From the NCBI GenBank assembly GCA_026023565.1, contig JAPETS010000002.1, positions 186,001 through 250,000 on the forward strand: DNA of 64,000 bases. Direction: 5' to 3'. The translations under genes were made by a program, and so were the position numbers. How positions within the stretch are numbered: position 1 is the first letter of the stretch; the number at the start of each line of letters is the position of its first letter. The notes beneath the pieces are model-generated. The model did not search any database and was not told the DNA's origin. It saw nothing but the letters and a program-made list of their open reading frames with translations. The DNA comes from Cirrosporium novae-zelandiae. Taxonomy: Eukaryota. This document shows, in pieces, positions 50,834-61,764 of the stretch.

Positions 50834-52568
50834 TCAAACCGTCGATCTAGTCCTTTCAATCTGTTCTACCACTCCCTCCCCCCCCTTCTTTTCTTCTATC
50901 CTTCCCTTCGTCGTCGTCGTCGTCTCCCCCCCTACTTCCTTCACCGCCATTCCCGCCACCTTGGCGTCCTCGCCGTCAAACAGTATCGCCACCTCCTCCA
51001 GCGTAGGCCCCTTGGTTTCAATAAAGAAGACATAAACGACCGCAAACTGAATAGCTATCCAGGCGACGTAGAAGAAATAGAACTTCCAGCCGAAGGCGTC
51101 GATGCCGAGGGGGTTGACGTAGGTGTTGAAGGCGCCAGCGGCGCCTGTCAGGAGCCAGAAGAGGGCAATGCCCTTAGCGCGGATGGAGTAGGGGAGGATT
51201 TCGACGACGTAGACCATCATTGCGCCGGTCCAGCCGAGGTTGTGGACGCCCGAGTAGAGGTAAATGAAGGCGACCGAGGCGTAGGAGGCCGAGGTTGAGC
51301 TTGTTTCGACGTAGGTGCCCGTGGTGGCGGTGATGATGGAGAAGACGAGCCACATGAGGGCCATGGAGGTGAGGAGGAGCGGGCGGCGACCGACGCGACC
51401 CGGGAGGAATGCAAAGGCTATAGAGCAGAGGAAGGAGAACATCTGCGAGGTGGCGGTGATGAGGGTTTGGTGGAGCTCCGACGTGATGCCGCTGCTCGTG
51501 AGCATCGACGACAGGTAGTACGACACCAGCCCGTTTCCCGACCACTGCTTGCAGATGCCGCACCAGATGAGGATGAAGCTGCGCCAGCGGTTCCCCGGCG
51601 TGCGCCAGAGTTCCGACCAGCGGGTTTGTTTGGCCGAGATTTCGAGCTCGATAGTCGACAGGATCTCGCGGTATTCCGTTTGCACCACTATGTCGGTTCG
51701 GTCGCCGTTGCCGTGGTATTTGGCTAGGATCGAGAGGGCCTTTTCTTCATGGCTGCGTGCCACCAGCCAGCGGGGGGATTCTGGGAGGAAAAATATCCCG
51801 ACTGCTTGAAGGACGGAGGGGAGAGCTTGGAAGATGGTCGGGATGCGCCAGGCCCTGTGGGAGAGGGGTTGTTATTGGGGGTCTAGTTGGCGGAAAGAGC
51901 GCTATATTAAGGGTAGAAAGAAAGTGCTCACCATGAGCTTGACATCCGAAAGCTTCCAAATGTTATCCAAGCGGCGATAATTGCACCGGTGCTGTATTGG
52001 GTGTTTGACAGGGCGGTTGCTGTAGCACGCTGGCTAGGGTAAGCTAGCTCTGCCATGAGGACAGGGCCTACAGCCCCAACGAGGACACCACCTATTCCAA
52101 GCATGAATCGGCCAACGATGAACATGGCGACGTTGATGGCAGCTGTAGCCAATGCAGTCCCGATAATACATATCATGGAGCCAATGAACATTGCTTGACG
52201 CCTTCCGAGACCGTCGGAAAGGAAGGATATAAAGACGACTCCGGCGACATTTCCGACCCAGTAGGAGGCGGATAGAAGACCGAGGATGTTGCCGGTTGGA
52301 TGGTTGAAGTCTATGCTTCGTATTAGAATTGGTTCATGTTGATAATGAAGGGGAGCATACCATTCTGCCATCTATGTAGCTGCTGGACGTTATTGATCAA
52401 GGAGGCATCGTATCCTTGAACGTATTCGGACATCAGGGGGATGAACAACAGTAGGTTGAGCTTTAGGAGACCACGATCGTGCCACCAGTGACCTATCTTG
52501 TCATCTTGAATAGCTACAGAAGCCACAACATGACGATCTGCCTGCGATTCCTTCTTGAAGAAGCCCAT
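50834..52568 (-). CDS. MFS sugar porter, lactose-permease/cellodextrin-transporter-like
   Basis: Exons 52568-52361, 52310-51932, 51854-50834. Motifs GYDASLINNVQ, DGLGRR, GRFMLGIG, ELAYPSQR, PESPRW, QWSGNGLVSYYL, GRVGRR and ETKGPTLEE. Confidence 0.93.
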
Positions 52569-52745
52569 CGTGTTCGGCGGATGATGAGGATATTGAGGAG
52601 GCTCTGAGTAGCTCTCCTAGGAATTAAGGGATAGCCATGACCCCCAGCAGACTTATATAGAGCAAACAGCTGGGGATTGACAATGAGGAGCTCCAAAGAC
52701 TTCAAGGGTTTCCCATGGTTAGCTCTCCAATAGCATTCGGTTCTT

Positions 52746-52762
52746 CGGGATCATAATGACCG
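52746..52762. promoter_or_regulatory. CGG-N11-CCG candidate Zn2Cys6 transcription-factor site
   Basis: CGG GATCATAATGA CCG in the divergent promoter between the permease and the beta-propeller gene. Confidence 0.4.
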
Positions 52763-53309
52763 GAAGGATGGAAACACGGAGATGGATTTTATTTTGGCAA
52801 CAAGAAGGAATTATTGAAAAAAGGAGAATGAGCATCGTCTTCCATTTGACTGCCGAGAAAAATATTTATGATAATTAAAGGTGCCCTTGTTGACCGGATT
52901 AGATAGAGGTGGGAGAGTAAATGCGGGGAATCTGAAGAGTTTGGGGGAGAATGCTTCAGTGGTTCGTCGACATCAGAAACTTGAAAAAAACCTGAAAACT
53001 TGAAAAAGATCCAACTCCCTCCACCCTCCATTTCGGGGCGTGCTAAATTATTATACCTCCAATGAAATATTCAACTCCTATCAGTCCAATGTTGCTAGAC
53101 TCCAAAAGTGTTTCAAGGCCATCTTTTTGAACCAATCTACCATGAATCCATCCCACCCTGTTCTGGAATCTGCAGGCAGGCCCAATTCTTTTGACGGTCT
53201 TCAACCTAAGAAGGGAAGGATAGTGTCATCATGCTGGCGCCTTTTCATTAAAAAGCCCGACGGCGGCGCAGGTGTCGGTTGAGATAATGTCAATAACCTA
53301 AATTCAAAA

Positions 53310-54982
53310 ATGGAAATGACAGAGAAGAAAGAGACTCCTCCTCCATGGCAACGAATCCATCCCGACCTATCTATTTTGGGTCGGGATCCTGGGGAACGTA
53401 CAAAATTTCGCCTAAATGTCAACTCCTTCCAGCAAAGTGCTTTGATATCTTTTAAGCAGTGGCAATATGCTGCTTTCTATACTTGTGACTCTGAACCAGA
53501 TGGTGATGGCACATTTCCAAGATATGTTACCCTCGCAAGGCGAAACCTTTGCACCTTTCCTCCCGAGGAGTCAAAGCGGCGTCCCTGGGAGCTCTTGACA
53601 TTTCATGATTACAAGCAGACGACAGATGATGGCCATAATATAATCTCCATTGGCATCTGCTTTGGAGATGGCACCATTCATGTCTCTTTTGACCACCACT
53701 GCGACCCGTAAGCCCCTCTGCCATACCACATTTAGACCACAGAAGCTAACCCGCGGCACTTATAGCTTACATTATCGAATATCTCAGCCTGGTGCCGCCT
53801 TAGAGCCTGATTTATATGAATGGTCTCCGCAACTCTTTAGCCCGGTTAGAAACCATCTGCCTGGTCTACCTTCTGCTACATCCTCAACTCTCCGAGAAAT
53901 CACATATCCTCGCTTTGTTTCTCACGGCGACGACTTAGTCTTTACTCATAGGATTGGGCAGTAATACCCCCCTTAATAATGTGGCGTTGAGGCCGCTTCT
54001 CTAGTCCCTTGTTCTTGTTATGTTCATGCTCCTAGATATATGATCAACATACCTGTCCAATCGCTAATTTCTAGAACAGAGCAGGCGCTGGATCAGATGT
54101 CCTCTACATCTACCGGGCAAGGACTCACGAGTACACTCTCCTTGGAACTTATCTCACGGGAGTAAACAACAACCCGTATATCAACGGCATGGATAGTTTG
54201 TCTGGCTGCCTATACGTTTCATGGTGTTATCGCGAATTTGTGGAATTCGATAATTCATCAGGGACAGCCCACAAACAGCAAGCCGGACCCAATGGACCCG
54301 AGAACAATCGTGACCTTGGATTCATGTATAGTGAAGATGATGGTCAGACATGGTGTAATAATTCTAGTAGAACCATATGTGACTTAAGTCGGGATGAAAC
54401 CGTCAAGCCAGACACAGAAGGCGCAGTGGTCTTACGGATCCCGAAGAATTCCGGTATTCTCAATCAAGAGAGCCAAGCTGCCGATTCGAATGGCGGCTTC
54501 CATGTCTTGAACCGTGAGAAAAGACATGGACAGATGCAATGGATACACTACTATCGGGACTCTTCTGGTCAGTAATCTCTAATATCATCTCCACGCAGAC
54601 GCCGTAGTAGATTAATACAAACACAGGGGTCTGGATTTCAATTCCAATACTTAATGTGATACCGACGGAAACTGGAAATAGGGGAAGCATAGGGGTTGAC
54701 CGAAAGAATAATGTTTTCTTTCTACTTCCCAGCAACACGGACTCCTCGTTAAGTCTCCTAGCGAGTTCACCTGATAGCTCGTATAGAGAAGTTGAGCTGT
54801 TGTGGAAAGGAACGGGCTATGATGGAGAGCCTCTAATTGATATCGAGCGGTTAAAGACGGAGGATATCCTCTCAGTATTTACGCGGATAGAACCAGAACG
54901 TGGTGGAAGTTTGATAGTCATCGACTTTCACCTATATGCATGGAGTTCAGGGCCAAATATTGGTGAAAGTGACGAGGTCTAA
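53310..54982 (+). CDS. BNR_4 beta-propeller protein, PL42-like (putative L-rhamnose-alpha-1,4-D-glucuronate lyase), no signal peptide
   Basis: Exons 53310-53707, 53766-53960, 54080-54567, 54627-54982 join in frame. Motifs LNVNSFQQSALI, WQYAAFY, DDGHNIISIG, DGTIHVSFDHH, ITYPRF, NPYING, Asp-box YSEDDGQTW, ILNQESQ and YDGEPL. Confidence 0.8.
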
Positions 54983-55462
54983 CGGGAATTGGGGAGGGGA
55001 ACTGTTAGGTTGAATTTCTAATCAATAAATTCCAGAAGGGGTATATAGGTACTTTACAGTAGAATGGATCAAGTTGTACCGAGGTACCGGGGAATCATCT
55101 TCCATCACCTTTTCTCCGCATAAATTTCCCCCCACCATCATTGCCTCCCACATTTTTCTCCTGAAAACTCCCCGCATAGGATGCCATATACAGAAAATTT
55201 CCCCTCTGACATATCCTCAATGAGGTAAATGCATCACTAAATCACCGTTGTTGTATCATTATTGCCTAGTTCTATTTCGCCGAATTTTTACAATGCTACC
55301 TTCAACCATCTGGCTGCCCTCGATCATCACGAAACCCATTTGATTTTTCATTATTCTGAATTTAGGTGTCATTTCTGATTCAGGATATATAAATCAACAT
55401 GATATTTCCTCATATTTCATGCTGTTTCTTTGTTTCCTCCATGTTTATTTTCGCTCGTCATC

Positions 55463-57099
55463 ATGATATCTCTAAGCAGCGCCATATTCTTTCTCTGTAT
55501 CCTTTCAAAGCATAGAGCTTTTGCAGGGACCTATGCGGTCCCTTCTTCCCCGCCGTCAAATGCGAGTCTCCAGCTTCTGGATGATCCGGTTGGGGTATCG
55601 TGCGTCTCTACGATCCTACCGAGGTTCTAACATTCTGACCCTGAAGTAGCCTCGAATTTTTTGCCTTCCCTGCATATTTCCAAGACGTTAGCGCTACATT
55701 GACATGTTTGCAAAATCTGGGAGACGCTATGGGCGCTCTTCCACCTGTACGGATTGGTGGTACAACACAGTCAGTCACTCCCAGTTCTATCAGGTCGTCT
55801 TGTTTAACAATGGTATTCTTCCCCATAGGGATCGATCAACCTATGACCCAACTCTCACCAGCGCTGTTTCATACACCGTTGCCTCAGCGGGTGCTGCACC
55901 CAGCTCCCTGACATTCGGCAAGGAATTCATGGAGATAGCGGGAACCTATGACGGAAATGTCACAATCGGCTTCAACCGTCGTCTCAACAACATTAGTAAC
56001 AGTATTGCTGCCGCAAAGGTCGCTGTCGAGGATATTCCATCCCTTTTCGCTATTGAGCTTGGAAACGAACCAGATCTCTATAGCGGAACTGACCCTATTG
56101 CTGTCAATGATACCTGGAATGTGACTCTTGACCAAAAGTCACAGATTCTTTGGCAGAAGACAGTGGGCTCCGAGCTTGGGCTCACCAACTTTATCGAGGC
56201 AGGCGTCTATCTCCAACCTCCCAAGTGGTCTACCGCACTCCTCGCCCCTCTCGAAGTCTCCAACGATGCTTCCCAGTACGTGAAATCCTTCTCCGACCAC
56301 TCGTACCCGCAATCTGCATGCTCAGGCTCCTCCACCGACCTCGAATCACTCATGACGCATTCCAATATCGTCGACTACACGGTAAAATACAAGGGTGACG
56401 CGGACGCAGCACATGACATCGGGAAGACATTCGTTCTGGGAGAAACGAACAGCGCGACATGTGGCGGAGGTGGCATCAGTCCCACATTCGGAGCCGGGCT
56501 GTGGATAATTGATTATATCATGCAGGCTCTTCTCAACCATGTTGACAAGCTTTATTTCCACCAAGGAACCGTTGGGAACTGTGGGCCCTCCACCTCCCAT
56601 CCTCTCTCATGCCCCCAATTCTCGATGGACATCTGACAACCTTTTAGGCCAATACTGCTGGTGGGGCAAATACGACATGGGCGCCCCCTTCTACGGGGCA
56701 TACTTTGTAGCCTCTGCCCTTGCCGGAGCCGACAAGGTTGTCCAGCTCGATGACGGCGCCACCGACTACGCCGTCTACGCCGTATACGAATCCGGTTCCC
56801 CCCTCCGCGCAGTACTGTACAACTCGGAGTACTACACGAGCGGCACCCGAAGCTCTACGACCTTCTCGCTATCGAACCTCGGTTCCAGCCAGAGTAGCGT
56901 CAAGGCAAAGCGTCTAACGGCGCCGTACGCTACGAGTCGGGTGGATAGGGGAGGGAATCCGAGTTTTGGGGGCCAGACTTTTGCGAATGTTACGTGTGCT
57001 ATTCAGGGGACCGAGACGTTTGAGACGACAACGGTGACTAGCGGCGTTGCGACTTTTACTGTTGGAGCGAGCGAGGCGTTGTTGGTGTACTTGGCATGA
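55463..57099 (+). CDS. Secreted glycoside hydrolase family 79 beta-glucuronidase
   Basis: Signal peptide MISLSSAIFFLCILSKHRAFA; exons 55463-55599, 55650-55769, 55829-56580, 56648-57099. Motifs VSLEF, VRIGGTTQD, IELGNEPD (acid/base), LGETNS (nucleophile), FGAGLWIIDY and YFHQG, then a C-terminal beta-sandwich (AKRLTAP..SFGGQTF). Confidence 0.92.
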
Positions 57100-57398: not shown

Positions 57399-58110
57399 CT
57401 AGTCAATTCCCCCATTTATCCTTTTCTCTCCTGTCCACTCCTCAACCAACTTCTCTGGCACGTCTCGGACCAGGACGTGAACATGCTCCAATCCAGGCAC
57501 ACTCTGTAAGGCGGCCCAGTTTTTAAACCACATGACCTTATCATCCGCATCCTCGAATCCCTCCTTGCGTATTCTCTCCACAAAAACCCGTTTCACGAAC
57601 TCCTCAATAACCCTCCTACTCTCATCTGTCACGTCTCCACTCTCTGGATCTGTGGCGATTGGTACCTTCGACCATGTACATATATGTACAATCCCGGGGG
57701 ATACGCCATACGGCCAGTCGTTATTGATGATGGTATAATCGCGGGGATCGGTGAAGGGAACGGGGCTATGGATCTCGAAGCGGAGGTTGGGCGTCGTGGA
57801 GATGGGTGTCCAGCGGAGGCGATGCTTTAAGAGGAAGTTGTTGAGGTCACCATATTCTTGTTTGATTCCGACGGACCAGGAGCGGTAGCGGGCGAGGTCA
57901 GAGGGCACACGTCGTAGGGAAGCGAGATCGTTTTTTGCTGCGTGGGCTTGTTAGTAGGGAAGCGAGATGCCATAGATATATATATGTGCAAGACGGACAG
58001 ATTATTCCTTTGAGGTCCTCCCAGGTATGTTTTTTAAAGTGGGCGTCTGCTACATCAGGAGATGAGCTTTTGGAAGAACGGGTCGATGTAGTTGATGTTG
58101 TGGAGGTCAT
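57399..58110 (-). CDS. DUF3605 / Gig1-like (GlcNAc-induced protein 1 family) protein
   Basis: Exons 58110-57999 and 57937-57399. Motifs HTWEDLK..I, LRRVPSDL, NDWPYG, HICTWSK and WFKNWAALQSVPGLEHVHV. Confidence 0.85.
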
Positions 58111-58799: not shown

Positions 58800-59864
58800 A
58801 TGGCCAACGAATCATTAATGGCTAGGAAATATATCGATGGCGTTTATATTCCTACTTTGCTGCTGATTGTTGGTACCGCAATTGTAAAAAGGGAATGGGT
58901 TCCTTATGCTGTCGCGGTGGCTGCTATTGCTGGTGGATACAAGATATTCGCTGGTCGTGAGTCTTTCCCTCGATGATTGACTATCCAAACTCTTTCTCGG
59001 CGTAAATAGATATACCAATGCTAACAATCTCTAATCTTAGAACCAAGGAAGGTCCTCAAACCCACAGAATTTCAAGAATTCGAGTTGTCTGAGAAGACAA
59101 TTCTCTCCCACAATACCGCAATCTACCGCTTCAGGCTACCCAACGAAACCGACATCCTTGGCCTCCCAATTGGCCAGCATATTTCCCTCGCTGCAACTAT
59201 TGAAGGACAGCCCAAGGAAGTTGTTCGCTCATACACCCCCATCTCATCAGACGACAATGCCGGCTACTTTGACCTTCTCGTCAAATCTTACCCCCAAGGA
59301 AATATCTCAAAACACCTCGCAACCCTGAAGGTCGGACAAGTCATGAAGGTCCGTGGTCCTAAGGGCGCCATGACATACAAGCCAAATATGTGCTCTAGGA
59401 TAGGCATGATTGCCGGCGGTACTGGTATTACACCAATGCTGCAAGTTGTGAAGGCAATCATCAAGGGGCGTGCTGCTGGGGACAAGACAAAAGTAGATTT
59501 GATTTTCGCCAATGTTAACCCAGAAGATATCTTGTTGAAGGAGGATTTGGACCAGCTAGCCAAAGATGATGCAGATTTCAACGTCCATTATGTCTTGAAT
59601 AACCCACCTAACAAGTGGGATGGTAGCACTGGTTTTGTTACCGCAGATATGATCAAGGCAAGTAACTTCACCCCGCTGTTCAACGGAAGAAAGCGTATAC
59701 TAATTTCGGAATAGGAAAAACTTCCTCCGCCAGCGGACAATATGAAGCTGTTGATTTGCGGACCACCGCCAATGGTGAGTGCTATGAAAAAGGCAGCAGA
59801 ATCATTGGGGTTCAAAAAGCCTAGAGCTGTCAGCAAGCTCGAAGATCAAGTCTTCTGCTTCTGA
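58800..59864 (+). CDS. CBR1: NADH-cytochrome b5 reductase
   Basis: Exons 58800-58956, 59041-59657, 59715-59864 (second intron is GC-AG). N-terminal membrane anchor; [26 protein letters not shown] and CGPPPM motifs; ends DQVFCF. Confidence 0.95.
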
Positions 59865-60057: not shown

Positions 60058-61125
60058 TCATGGGCTAGATGCAGCCAAATCTCCATGTCCCACTTCCTGG
60101 GAAAACTTCTCAAAATCCACACCATGCTTTTTGAACAGTTTCTTCACTTCTTCCAAGGCAACCTTCTGCCTCTCGGGCGTAAATCCACCGGGTCGTGTAC
60201 TTTCATATTGAATCAACTCAACCCATCTGTAGAACAGATTTTGCTTTCCCATCTCTTCCAATTTCTGCTGCATCTGCATAAAGTTCTGCCTGCGGGCATC
60301 ACTTGCGCCCTCATCTAATTTGTGTAGGTTCCACACCAACCAACCATGTGCATCATGATGCGCAATCACAGCTTTTTGAAAATCATCTATAGCTGCTTTT
60401 TTCGTGTCCACCATTTCGTGTGCCTTGATCATGGCTGCGAAGTTTAGGTCCCAACTCTTGTCCATCATTACATATCCTGTTTTCTCTCGGACATATTGGG
60501 GGTCGATAGCGGGCATAATTCGATCGCGAAAGATCTCCCCACTCCTCTCACCATCCTCATCCGTCTCTTCCCCTTCTTCCATCCACGAGGAAGTAAGCTC
60601 GCTATCCCAACTTAGGCGACTGACCCTCACAACAATCTCCTGATCCCTAAATCCGACTTTCCATTTCCATTGTGCCGGGTTTCCGGGCTCCGCAAAAAAG
60701 AATTCCAAGGGCCACGGCCCGATGAATCGAAATAATATGAAATCAGTCAGAAAGATGGCCGCACGCGAAAATATTATCCAAAGTAGATCCGGCCATGATG
60801 TGTTCCCGACGTCGATTGTCGAAGCGGTTTTATTGCCGAGAGTGGAGAGAAGGATGGAGAAGTAGAAGGGGGCGGCGGCGTAGATACGGTATGCGAGGAG
60901 AATCACAATGCTGATGTTAAGGAGGATAGGAACGTAGAATATACGTTTTTTGAAGTCGGCCGGGAAGGTGTCGATGTGGACGATGTAGATATGGGACGGA
61001 GAGAGTGTTTCTAAAAAGGGGAGGAGGGCCTTTGGAGGTGAAGTGAATGGGGCTGGTGGGCCTGTGGGTTTGGGTTTGCGAGGAGTAGATGAGGGTTTTT
61101 TGGAAGAGGCCTTGTTTCGAGCCAT
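60058..61125 (-). CDS. Conserved hypothetical membrane protein (about 2 TM segments)
   Basis: 355-aa single ORF with hydrophobic stretches IFYVPILLNISIVILLAYRI and LLWIIFSRAAIFLTDFILF; C-terminal NLFYRWVELIQYES. Confidence 0.8.
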   Translation of the reverse strand: MARNKASSKKPSSTPRKPKPTGPPAPFTSPPKALLPFLETLSPSHIYIVHIDTFPADFKKRIFYVPILLNISIVILLAYRIYAAAPFYFSILLSTLGNKTASTIDVGNTSWPDLLWIIFSRAAIFLTDFILFRFIGPWPLEFFFAEPGNPAQWKWKVGFRDQEIVVRVSRLSWDSELTSSWMEEGEETDEDGERSGEIFRDRIMPAIDPQYVREKTGYVMMDKSWDLNFAAMIKAHEMVDTKKAAIDDFQKAVIAHHDAHGWLVWNLHKLDEGASDARRQNFMQMQQKLEEMGKQNLFYRWVELIQYESTRPGGFTPERQKVALEEVKKLFKKHGVDFEKFSQEVGHGDLAASSP

Positions 61126-61764
61126 GGGGAATGGAGTTGAGTGTTGAATTAAATGATATAAAAGGTAATGGCCCGTGGAAATGTTTCAAAGAGAATAAAA
61201 AGAGTCTGTAGGAATATAATTCACTAAACTCATTCTCATTATGCAAAAATCGTAATGGTTCATGCAAGTAATGTACAAGTATGCATATTACGTAGCTCTT
61301 TATAAAGCAGGACTTGGCTTTTCTTTCCAGTCAACGATTGTATATAAACTAATTAATTAATCAATCAATCAATCAATCATTTATGCAAAAAAAAAGCTAA
61401 ATAAGTTTTGGATCGTGTCATCATTAGGCGCCAAGCGCTTAAGGGAAGTTTCGGTATCTTTGGTGTACTCTGGTTGTACTCTGGTTATACCCCTTGTACT
61501 TTACCGTGTAAATTACTTGACCAGCAAAGGCCAAGCAAGGACCAGGCTAGTACCTGAATGAAGGGCTGATGAGAGCTCTGTGGGCACTGAGTGATCTGAA
61601 CCATTTAACTTCTAGAAGATCCATTTCCATGTGTCGCACTGTCTTTGGATTTCATTCAAGGTACCAAAAGTCTACCGCCTTTGAGGATGATTAGAGATGA
61701 TTAGAGACAATTAGACATGAGGCGAACTAAGGCGGACAGTTCAGATTGTAAAGTTGTTACAGTG

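What the first reader, a model, noticed from the sequence alone, without database searches (positions are those of the whole stretch)
50834..57099. Candidate fungal polysaccharide-utilisation cluster: secreted GH79 + disaccharide permease + cytosolic PL42-like lyase
Seen: three adjacent carbohydrate genes. An MFS permease is divergently transcribed from a BNR_4 beta-propeller gene, followed about 480 nt later by a signal-peptide-bearing GH79. Established: in Fusarium oxysporum a GH79 (FoBGlcA) releases the Rha-alpha-1,4-GlcA disaccharide from gum arabic/arabinogalactan protein, and a BNR_4 PL42 lyase (FoRham1) splits that linkage. Lactose-permease/CDT-type porters carry disaccharides. Inference: GH79 clips Rha-GlcA outside the cell, the permease imports it, and an intracellular lyase yields L-rhamnose plus unsaturated uronate. 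This would be a 'selfish' uptake pathway resembling bacterial PULs. I know of no description of this three-gene locus or of a Rha-GlcA transporter in fungi, but have not searched.
Basis: partly seen in the sequence, partly recalled or inferred. Interest (0 to 1): 0.85.

Follow-up and report, generated by a model that had tools for sequence, protein, structure and literature searches.

The report
Fungal rhamnose-glucuronate uptake gene cluster
Three neighbouring fungal genes look like a kit for cutting a rhamnose-glucuronic acid cap off plant glycoproteins outside the cell, importing it with a transporter nobody has characterised, and splitting it inside the cell.

Summary
All three genes splice cleanly: a 535-aa sugar porter, a 478-aa signal-less BNR_4 propeller and a 487-aa secreted GH79. 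The propeller keeps FoRham1's PL42 catalytic set and fold (TM 0.92) and belongs to a fungal clade that lacks signal peptides and carries a loop insertion. The GH79 is FoBGlcA-type (about 56% identity). The conserved core is the permease-lyase pair: consecutive accessions in 26 of 28 hand-picked taxa. GH79 is linked only in Eurotiales, one metagenome contig and this genome, and the pair is not universal (4 of 21 informative metagenome loci). The permease clade has Lys and His at two sugar-pocket positions, which fits an acidic substrate. Its Aspergillus niger orthologue, An14g01600, is induced about 50-fold by rhamnose, 7-fold less without RhaR, and barely by cellulose. It is also induced by galacturonate and polygalacturonate, so a pectin-derived substrate remains a real rival. 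No activity, localisation or gum-arabic data exist. Verdict: a new variant of fungal import-then-cleave clusters, directly testable.

The parts
50834..52568 (-). Sugar-porter (MFS) permease, 3 exons, 535 aa, lactose-permease/cellodextrin-type by source names; clade-specific Lys298 and His400 at sugar-pocket positions; keeps Arg137 and the TM1 GYD motif
   Evidence: A. niger orthologue An14g01600
52569..53309 (.). 741-nt divergent promoter region shared by permease and lyase
   Evidence: same head-to-head layout in L012, L014, L016, L021, L022, L024, L025, L035
52746..52762 (.). CGG-N11-CCG, the site bound by A. nidulans RhaR in EMSA
   Evidence: present in 4 of 8 orthologous promoter regions, simulated mean 0.69, p about 0.002
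52921..52928 (+). ATGCGGGG, top-scoring form of the putative A. niger RhaR motif; also fits the recalled CreA consensus SYGGRG
   Evidence: in 5 of 8 orthologous promoter regions (found post hoc)
53056..53062 (+). CCNCCAA (GaaR element); not enriched across orthologous promoters
   Evidence: (p 0.29)
53310..54982 (+). PL42 (BNR_4) beta-propeller lyase without signal peptide, 4 exons, 478 aa; Asp107, His109, His130, Tyr180, Arg195, Tyr231, Arg249, Asn326, Gln327, Arg379, Glu428 match the FoRham1 site; insertion of about 17 aa after Arg249
55170..55177 (-). Second ATGCGGGG, in the 480-nt region upstream of GH79; 2 of the 3 copies in the 64-kb window lie in this cluster's two intergenic regions
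55463..57099 (+). GH79 of the FoBGlcA type with hydrophobic leader and six N-glycosylation sequons, 4 exons, 487 aa; Glu167 (GNEP) and Glu292 (GETNS) kept

Best explanation
An RhaR-linked catabolic cluster for the terminal alpha-L-Rha-(1,4)-D-GlcA cap of plant arabinogalactan-proteins. Step 1 (inferred from homology): the secreted GH79 hydrolyses the beta-glucuronide bond and releases the Rha-GlcA disaccharide. Step 2 (inferred): the permease imports it, probably with a proton, the pocket Lys298/His400 holding the carboxylate. Step 3 (inferred from a conserved active site and no leader): the cytosolic PL42 beta-eliminates it to L-rhamnose and unsaturated glucuronate. Step 4: rhamnose enters the genome's rhamnose pathway (genes shown on contig C45) and feeds back on RhaR; the fate of the keto-deoxy-uronate is unresolved. 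Shown here: gene structure, family membership, residue conservation, synteny, and published rhamnose/RhaR-dependent expression of the A. niger permease orthologue. Not shown: any activity, transport substrate or localisation.
For: PL42: best PDB match FoRham1, E 3e-63; model pLDDT 89.7, TM 0.92, rmsd 2.2 A to 7ESK; catalytic and Rha-binding residues listed in PMC8377490 and PMC10951650 are kept. FoRham1 prefers the free disaccharide made by FoBGlcA, kcat/Km 34 versus 7. Insertion clade: 64 rows, support 99, sister to secreted fungal PL42; 61 of 65 N-complete insertion-motif proteins lack a hydrophobic N-terminus versus 17 of 101 others. GH79: FoBGlcA 7DFQ E 1e-77 versus 2e-6 for the next GH79; 56% to an F. 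oxysporum protein bearing both FoBGlcA motifs tested. Synteny; L021 has the same three genes, order and strands. Permease: Lys298 in 46 of 46 clade members with that column versus 0 of 63 paralogues, His400 53 of 53 versus 3 of 63; they align to STP10 Gln295 and Phe401, both glucose-binding. An14g01600: rhamnose 1751, glucose 35, cellulose 96, rhaR deletion on rhamnose 244. RhaR-type motifs. Rhamnose pathway genes: SDR, Zn2Cys6 factor, rhamnonate-dehydratase-like gene. No secreted PL42 found in this genome.
Against: An14g01600 is induced as strongly by polygalacturonate (66-fold) and galacturonate (27-fold), and gum arabic was not among the tested carbon sources. GH79 is unlinked in 2 of 9 taxa with both tags seen and absent from the 8-10 kb flanks of L012 and L014. 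Only 4 of 21 insertion-clade metagenome loci with at least 2 kb upstream carry the orthologous permease; L010 and L023 keep the flanking FAD-monooxygenase gene but lack it. The lyase differs from FoRham1 at the +1 side (Ser170 to Ala, insertion at Pro223), so specificity could have shifted. FoBGlcA's rhamnose subsite residues could not be checked (paper not held). No KduI match. Expression of the A. niger lyase and GH79 neighbours was not found.
Confidence: 0.62

Rival explanations
1. The permease-lyase pair handles a pectin-derived rhamnose-uronate, such as Rha-alpha-1,4-GalA from rhamnogalacturonan I, or the Rha-GlcA stub where pectin joins arabinogalactan-protein (linkage recalled). GH79 is a co-regulated add-on.
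For: An14g01600 induced 66-fold on polygalacturonate and 27-fold on galacturonate. The pair is kept without an adjacent GH79 in L012 and L014, and no Botrytis or Colletotrichum GH79 was among the 120 of 301 hits listed. Active-site edge altered by the insertion.
Against: FoRham1 shows no activity on RG-I oligosaccharides, and Arg220, which distorts GlcA, is conserved here. An14g01600 is not induced on RG-I, apple pectin or beet pulp at 2 h, although another rhamnose-specific transporter is also flat on RG-I. A beta-glucuronidase neighbour recurs in three separate GH79 lineages.
Confidence: 0.17
2. Longer side-chain oligosaccharides (Rha-GlcA-Gal or larger) are imported; the cytosolic lyase removes rhamnose and a GH88-type or GH154-type enzyme finishes the job.
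For: Yeast-like locus L028 groups a signal-less PL42 with a GH88, a DUF2264 protein, a porter and two transcription factors. This genome has PF07470 and DUF2264 genes elsewhere.
Against: L028's porter is a different lineage (36-39% identity to the porters compared) and its lyase has Met at the His105 position. The adjacent secreted GH79 here would cut exactly that bond outside the cell. The DUF2264 gene and one PF07470 gene examined lie on other contigs with no such cluster evident.
Confidence: 0.09
3. Cleavage is extracellular, as in Fusarium: the lyase leaves by a non-classical route and the permease takes up a monomer (rhamnose or a uronate).
For: An14g01600 responds to the monomers rhamnose and galacturonate. 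FoRham1 was purified from culture supernatant.
Against: A whole clade lacks leaders while its sister clade keeps them. The permease sits among porters that sources name lactose permeases, a clade that holds disaccharide carriers; the A. niger rhamnose and galacturonate transporters are other genes.
Confidence: 0.09
4. The three genes are neighbours by chance or by shared regulation only, with no shared substrate.
For: Linkage is lost in several lineages.
Against: Head-to-head pair kept across several fungal classes with different flanking genes; full trio in L021 and Rasamsonia byssochlamydoides.
Confidence: 0.03

Closest known systems
FoRham1, PL42 L-rhamnose-alpha-1,4-D-glucuronate lyase (F. 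oxysporum; PDB 7ESK)
   Same: Fold (TM 0.92), His-His-Asp triad, Arg neutraliser, rhamnose-binding residues.
   Different: 34% identity; FoRham1 is secreted, this protein has no leader and carries an insertion of about 17 aa beside the GlcA subsite; Ser170 to Ala, Tyr26 to Phe.
[quoted passage not shown]
   Same: Sole strong PDB match, about 56% identity to its F. oxysporum relative, both catalytic Glu motifs, secreted.
   Different: Separate branch of the subfamily; in three Nectriaceae gene models the enzyme is fused to an alpha-rhamnosidase domain instead.
Fungal import-then-cleave systems: LAC12-LAC4, CDT-1/GH1-1, MAL clusters (recalled; lacpA/B and CDT1/2 clade seen)
   Same: Sugar porter plus intracellular cleaving enzyme, shared divergent promoter, secreted upstream hydrolase.
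   Different: Cleavage by a polysaccharide lyase; acidic hetero-disaccharide proposed; Lys/His pocket absent from 63 paralogous porters.
Bacterial gum-arabic loci (Bacteroides BT3686/PL27; Bifidobacterium type-II arabinogalactan cluster with intracellular PL27)
   Same: Co-located uptake and cell-associated cleavage of the Rha-GlcA linkage.
   Different: No SusC/D or ABC system, only three genes, eukaryotic; not a PUL by definition.

Membership tests
PL42 | BNR_4 seven-bladed beta-propeller homologous to FoRham1/former GH145 | tested here: met
   PF15892 E 4e-65; top seven-plus fold matches are FoRham1 then GH145
PL42 | Anterior lyase site: Asp83, His85, His105, Tyr150, Arg166, Tyr202, Arg220 | tested here: met
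   Asp107, His109, His130, Tyr180, Arg195, Tyr231, Arg249
PL42 | Rhamnose subsite: Tyr26, Asn275, Gln276, Arg331, Glu381 | tested here: met
   Four identical; Tyr26 is Phe, as in four secreted relatives P0059-P0062
PL42 | beta-elimination of Rha-alpha-1,4-GlcA | not testable with these tools
   needs enzyme assay
GH145-type retaining rhamnosidase (BT3686) | NCBIfam equivalog score above cut-off | tested here: not met
   103 bits against cut-off 700
GH79, FoBGlcA type | GH79 barrel with two catalytic Glu and C-terminal beta domain; closest to FoBGlcA | tested here: met
GH79, FoBGlcA type | Wide pocket accepting rhamnose on O4 of GlcA | not tested
   primary paper not held; no coordinates available to scripts
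GH79, FoBGlcA type | Secretion signal | tested here: met
   hydropathy proxy only, 2.5-2.9 in the first 15 residues, plus sequons
Sugar porter family | PF00083 / TIGR00879 above cut-off; proton-site Arg of TM4 | tested here: met
   Arg137 aligns to STP10 Arg142
Cellodextrin/lactose permease (functional) | Induction by and transport of cellobiose or lactose | tested here: inconclusive
   orthologue only 2.8-fold on cellulose and flat on galactose; transport untested
Bacterial PUL | SusC/SusD pair or equivalent, with adjacent regulator | tested here: not met
   flanks are a patatin-like lipase and DUF3605; no regulator among the flanking ORFs scanned
RhaR regulon | Rhamnose induction lost in rhaR deletion; RhaR site in promoter | tested here: inconclusive
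   met for the A. niger permease orthologue in published data; motifs present here; no expression data for this genome

The most novel reading that the evidence does not exclude
A widespread, undescribed fungal module: the first eukaryotic transporter dedicated to an acidic rhamnose-uronate disaccharide, paired with a cytosolic PL42 subfamily, inherited or transferred as a unit (both gene trees group Colletotrichum with Rasamsonia, Onygenales and Xylogone), with FoBGlcA-type GH79 either ancestral to the locus or recruited up to three times. [quoted passage not shown]
Probability: 0.45. Interest if true: 0.76.

Novelty: new variant of a known kind. Interest (0 to 1): 0.64.

Why it matters
It names a candidate substrate for an orphan transporter conserved from A. 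niger to Botrytis and Colletotrichum, and shows that many fungal PL42 genes are probably cytosolic rather than secreted. That changes how arabinogalactan-protein and pectin-junction breakdown is modelled in fungi. A. niger An14g01600 makes the idea testable at once in a standard laboratory organism, and a Lys/His pocket would be a handle for engineering acidic-oligosaccharide uptake in yeast.

Tried and rejected
Single-sequence fold of the permease was useless (pLDDT 42.5), so pocket positions rest on alignment to STP10. No RNA holder was listed for the locus (no evidence either way). Earlier scan notes: nothing shown. The protein atlas gave only generic sugar-porter clusters. The first promoter scan wrongly included permease coding DNA for L022 and was redone; seven named motifs were tried, so p 0.002 for CGG-N11-CCG is about 0.014 after correction; GaaR and CreA consensus motifs were not enriched. 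A. niger NRRL3_00701 (GH79, 34-fold RhaR-dependent) was considered as the cluster GH79 but not accepted: its listed neighbours are a short-chain dehydrogenase and an oxidoreductase; NRRL3_00703-00709 gave no match to the cluster. An14g01610/An14g01620 were not found in four other A. niger papers or supplements. The database GH79 model P0063 (456 aa) reads into intron 3 and has a shorter N-terminal part; my model was preferred because it restores the FoBGlcA-like HQGTVGNCQYCWW stretch. One origin for all linked GH79s was rejected (p-AU 0.0097), but linked copies are paraphyletic, so ancestral linkage with loss fits as well as repeated recruitment. Papers not held: FoBGlcA, the RG-I/AGP linkage paper, the Bacteroides AGP paper. 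A whole-genome CAZyme inventory could not be made.
Full report
Observation. The three genes are real and lie as described. Spliced models with GT-AG introns give a 535-aa permease on the minus strand (52568 to 50834), a 478-aa BNR_4 protein (53310-54982) and a 487-aa GH79 (55463-57099), none with internal stops. Pfam confirms Sugar_tr, BNR_4 and Glyco_hydro_79C. The lyase model is letter for letter database protein P0001, which its source names as from Cirrosporium novae-zelandiae, class Xylobotryomycetes. The genome gave one BNR_4 locus and two GH79 loci (lower bounds).

The lyase. FoRham1 is the best PDB match by sequence (E 3e-63) and by fold (model pLDDT 89.7; TM 0.92, rmsd 2.2 A, 34% identity). 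I read parts 1-5 of 7 of PMC8377490 and passages of PMC10951650. The residues they name as catalytic or substrate-binding are kept: Asp83, His85, His105, Tyr150, Arg166, Tyr202, Arg220, Asn275, Gln276, Arg331, Glu381. Two differ: Tyr26 is Phe and Ser170 is Ala; FoRham1 S170A keeps 30% activity on Rha-GlcA. FoRham1 is about five times more efficient on the free disaccharide than on the tetrasaccharide and inactive on RG-I oligosaccharides. The window protein has an insertion of about 17 residues after the Arg220 equivalent. In a tree of 163 N-complete homologues, 64 insertion-bearing proteins form one clade (support 99), sister to seven secreted fungal proteins; one bacterial-type row matched the motif by coincidence. 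Of 65 motif-bearing rows 61 lack a hydrophobic N-terminus, against 17 of 101 others (hydropathy proxy). Two clade members do have plausible leaders. So this is a signal-less fungal subfamily of PL42.

The GH79. FoBGlcA (7DFQ) is the only strong PDB match. My model is 56% identical to an F. oxysporum protein carrying both FoBGlcA motifs tested, against 30% to the genome's second GH79. Glu167 and Glu292 sit in the GNEP and GETNS motifs (roles recalled from clan GH-A). FoBGlcA's release of Rha-GlcA is taken from PMC8377490 and passages of PMC13259613; its own paper was not held, so the rhamnose subsite was not checked.

The permease. It heads a clade of 33 of 88 near-full-length rows (support 100). 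Among 120 listed hits, Lys298 is present in 46 of 46 close members having that column and 0 of 63 paralogues; His400 in 53 of 53 against 3 of 63. They align to STP10 Gln295 and Phe401, and Arg137 to Arg142 (one-residue offset); passages of PMC6345825 give these as glucose-binding and proton-site residues. A basic pocket fits a carboxylate; this is inference. A motif search of supplement 1 of PMC5968117 identified the A. niger orthologue as An14g01600. Its row in supplement 4 (means): rhamnose 1751, galacturonate 921, polygalacturonate 2290, galactan 848, arabinan 240, cellulose 96, glucose 35, RG-I 25, apple pectin 60, beet pulp 46, rhaR deletion on rhamnose 244. Gum arabic was not tested. This argues against a cellodextrin role and for a rhamnose/uronate role, but it does not choose between GlcA and GalA.

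Synteny. I looked up 10 lyase clusters, 10 permease clusters and 10 GH79/permease clusters, chosen because their taxa overlapped, so these counts are not frequencies (with 23, 25, 26). Lyase and permease have consecutive accessions or tags in 26 of 28 taxa where both were seen: seven Botrytis/Botryotinia, Monilinia, Clarireedia, Venustampulla, Hymenoscyphus, Xylogone, six Colletotrichum, two Rasamsonia, three Aspergillus, one Onygenales, Neofusicoccum ribis and Aplosporella. C. scovillei and N. parvum are 19-23 numbers apart (465 in one assembly) and unresolved. GH79 lies within two numbers in 7 of 9 taxa: A. ellipticus, A. heteromorphus, A. steynii, A. wentii, Paecilomyces variotii, Penicillium verhagenii and R. 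byssochlamydoides; only in the last were all three genes seen, so the middle gene is inferred in six. It is unlinked in two Onygenales. At DNA level, 8 of 47 metagenome loci show the permease head to head with the lyase, and L021 repeats the full trio in the same order and strands. Against: of 21 insertion-clade loci with at least 2 kb upstream only 4 carry the orthologous permease (the set is redundant and includes distant, probably basidiomycete loci); L010 and L023 have lost it from the same syntenic slot; L012 and L014 have no GH79 nearby. Linked GH79s are not one clade (p-AU 0.0097) but paraphyletic, so ancestral linkage and repeated recruitment both fit. A yeast-like locus, L028, places a signal-less PL42 with a GH88, a DUF2264 protein whose PDB matches are glucuronate dehydratases and a beta-galactosidase (GH154 link recalled), another porter and two regulators, an independent sign that this clade works inside the cell on uronate glycans.

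Regulation and downstream. The shared promoter holds CGG-N11-CCG, the A. nidulans RhaR site (passages of PMC4245848), found in 4 of 8 orthologous regions against 0.69 expected. ATGCGGGG, which I found post hoc in 5 of 8 regions, is the top-scoring form of the putative A. niger RhaR motif (PMC5617896 passages and dataset S5); 2 of its 3 copies in the window lie in the cluster's two intergenic regions. It also fits the recalled CreA consensus. Contig C45 carries a short-chain dehydrogenase, a Zn2Cys6 factor and a rhamnonate-dehydratase-like gene (373 bits on a partial frame, cut-off 393). No KduI was found, so the uronate product's fate is open.

Mechanism and rivals. Most likely (0.62): GH79 releases Rha-GlcA outside, the permease imports it, the cytosolic lyase splits it. 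Rivals: a pectin-derived rhamnose-uronate (0.17), import of longer oligosaccharides (0.09), extracellular cleavage with monomer uptake (0.09), chance (0.03).

Novelty. The two enzyme families and the import-then-cleave design are known. Ten full-text searches (listings and abstract starts seen, plus the papers named above and passages of PMC13712309) showed no description of this locus, a cytosolic fungal PL42 or a Rha-GlcA transporter. The library lacks most subscription journals and bioRxiv supplements were closed, so absence is not proven. An14g01600 is listed as uncharacterised in the 2018 supplement. I rate it a new variant of a known kind, interest 0.64.

Noticed in passing
L028:3292-15638: Intronless, yeast-like cluster: Zn2Cys6 factor, sugar porter, GH88, signal-less PL42 (Met at the His105 position), DUF2264 protein, C2H2 factor; resembles a compact uronate-oligosaccharide locus.
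   Followed up: partly
P0169, P0176, P0178: Fusarium and Cylindrodendrum gene models fuse the FoBGlcA-type GH79 to an alpha-rhamnosidase domain, suggesting an adjacent hydrolytic route for the same disaccharide.
   Followed up: no
L031:2367-7587: Bacterial PL42 next to an AraC regulator, a xylose-isomerase-like barrel and an FGGY kinase, possibly rhamnose catabolism.
   Followed up: no
P0023, P0029, P0034-P0047; P0187, P0191, P0193, P0206: Both lyase and permease trees group Colletotrichum with Rasamsonia, Onygenales and Xylogone, against expected species relationships; possible joint transfer or hidden paralogy.
   Followed up: partly
L062:304-6905 (G000 C45): Rhamnose catabolic cluster (dehydrogenase, Zn2Cys6 factor, dehydratase) with CGG-N11-CCG sites at 1604 and 5217.
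   Followed up: partly
L010, L012, L014, L022, L024, L025: In Leotiomycete-like loci the lyase lies beside MND1 and an arrestin gene, which explains several fused database gene models (P0017, P0028, P0385).
   Followed up: partly
window:47869-50157, 57399-57950, 58800-59714, 60058-61185: Flanking genes: patatin-like lipase with DUF3336, DUF3605 protein, cytochrome b5 reductase-like oxidoreductase, and a 375-aa frame with no Pfam match.
   Followed up: no
window:55463-57099: Top database hits of the GH79 exon include chytrid, Tremellomycete and Agaricomycete proteins at 55-59% identity, as close as ascomycete ones; its placement is weakly resolved.
   Followed up: partly
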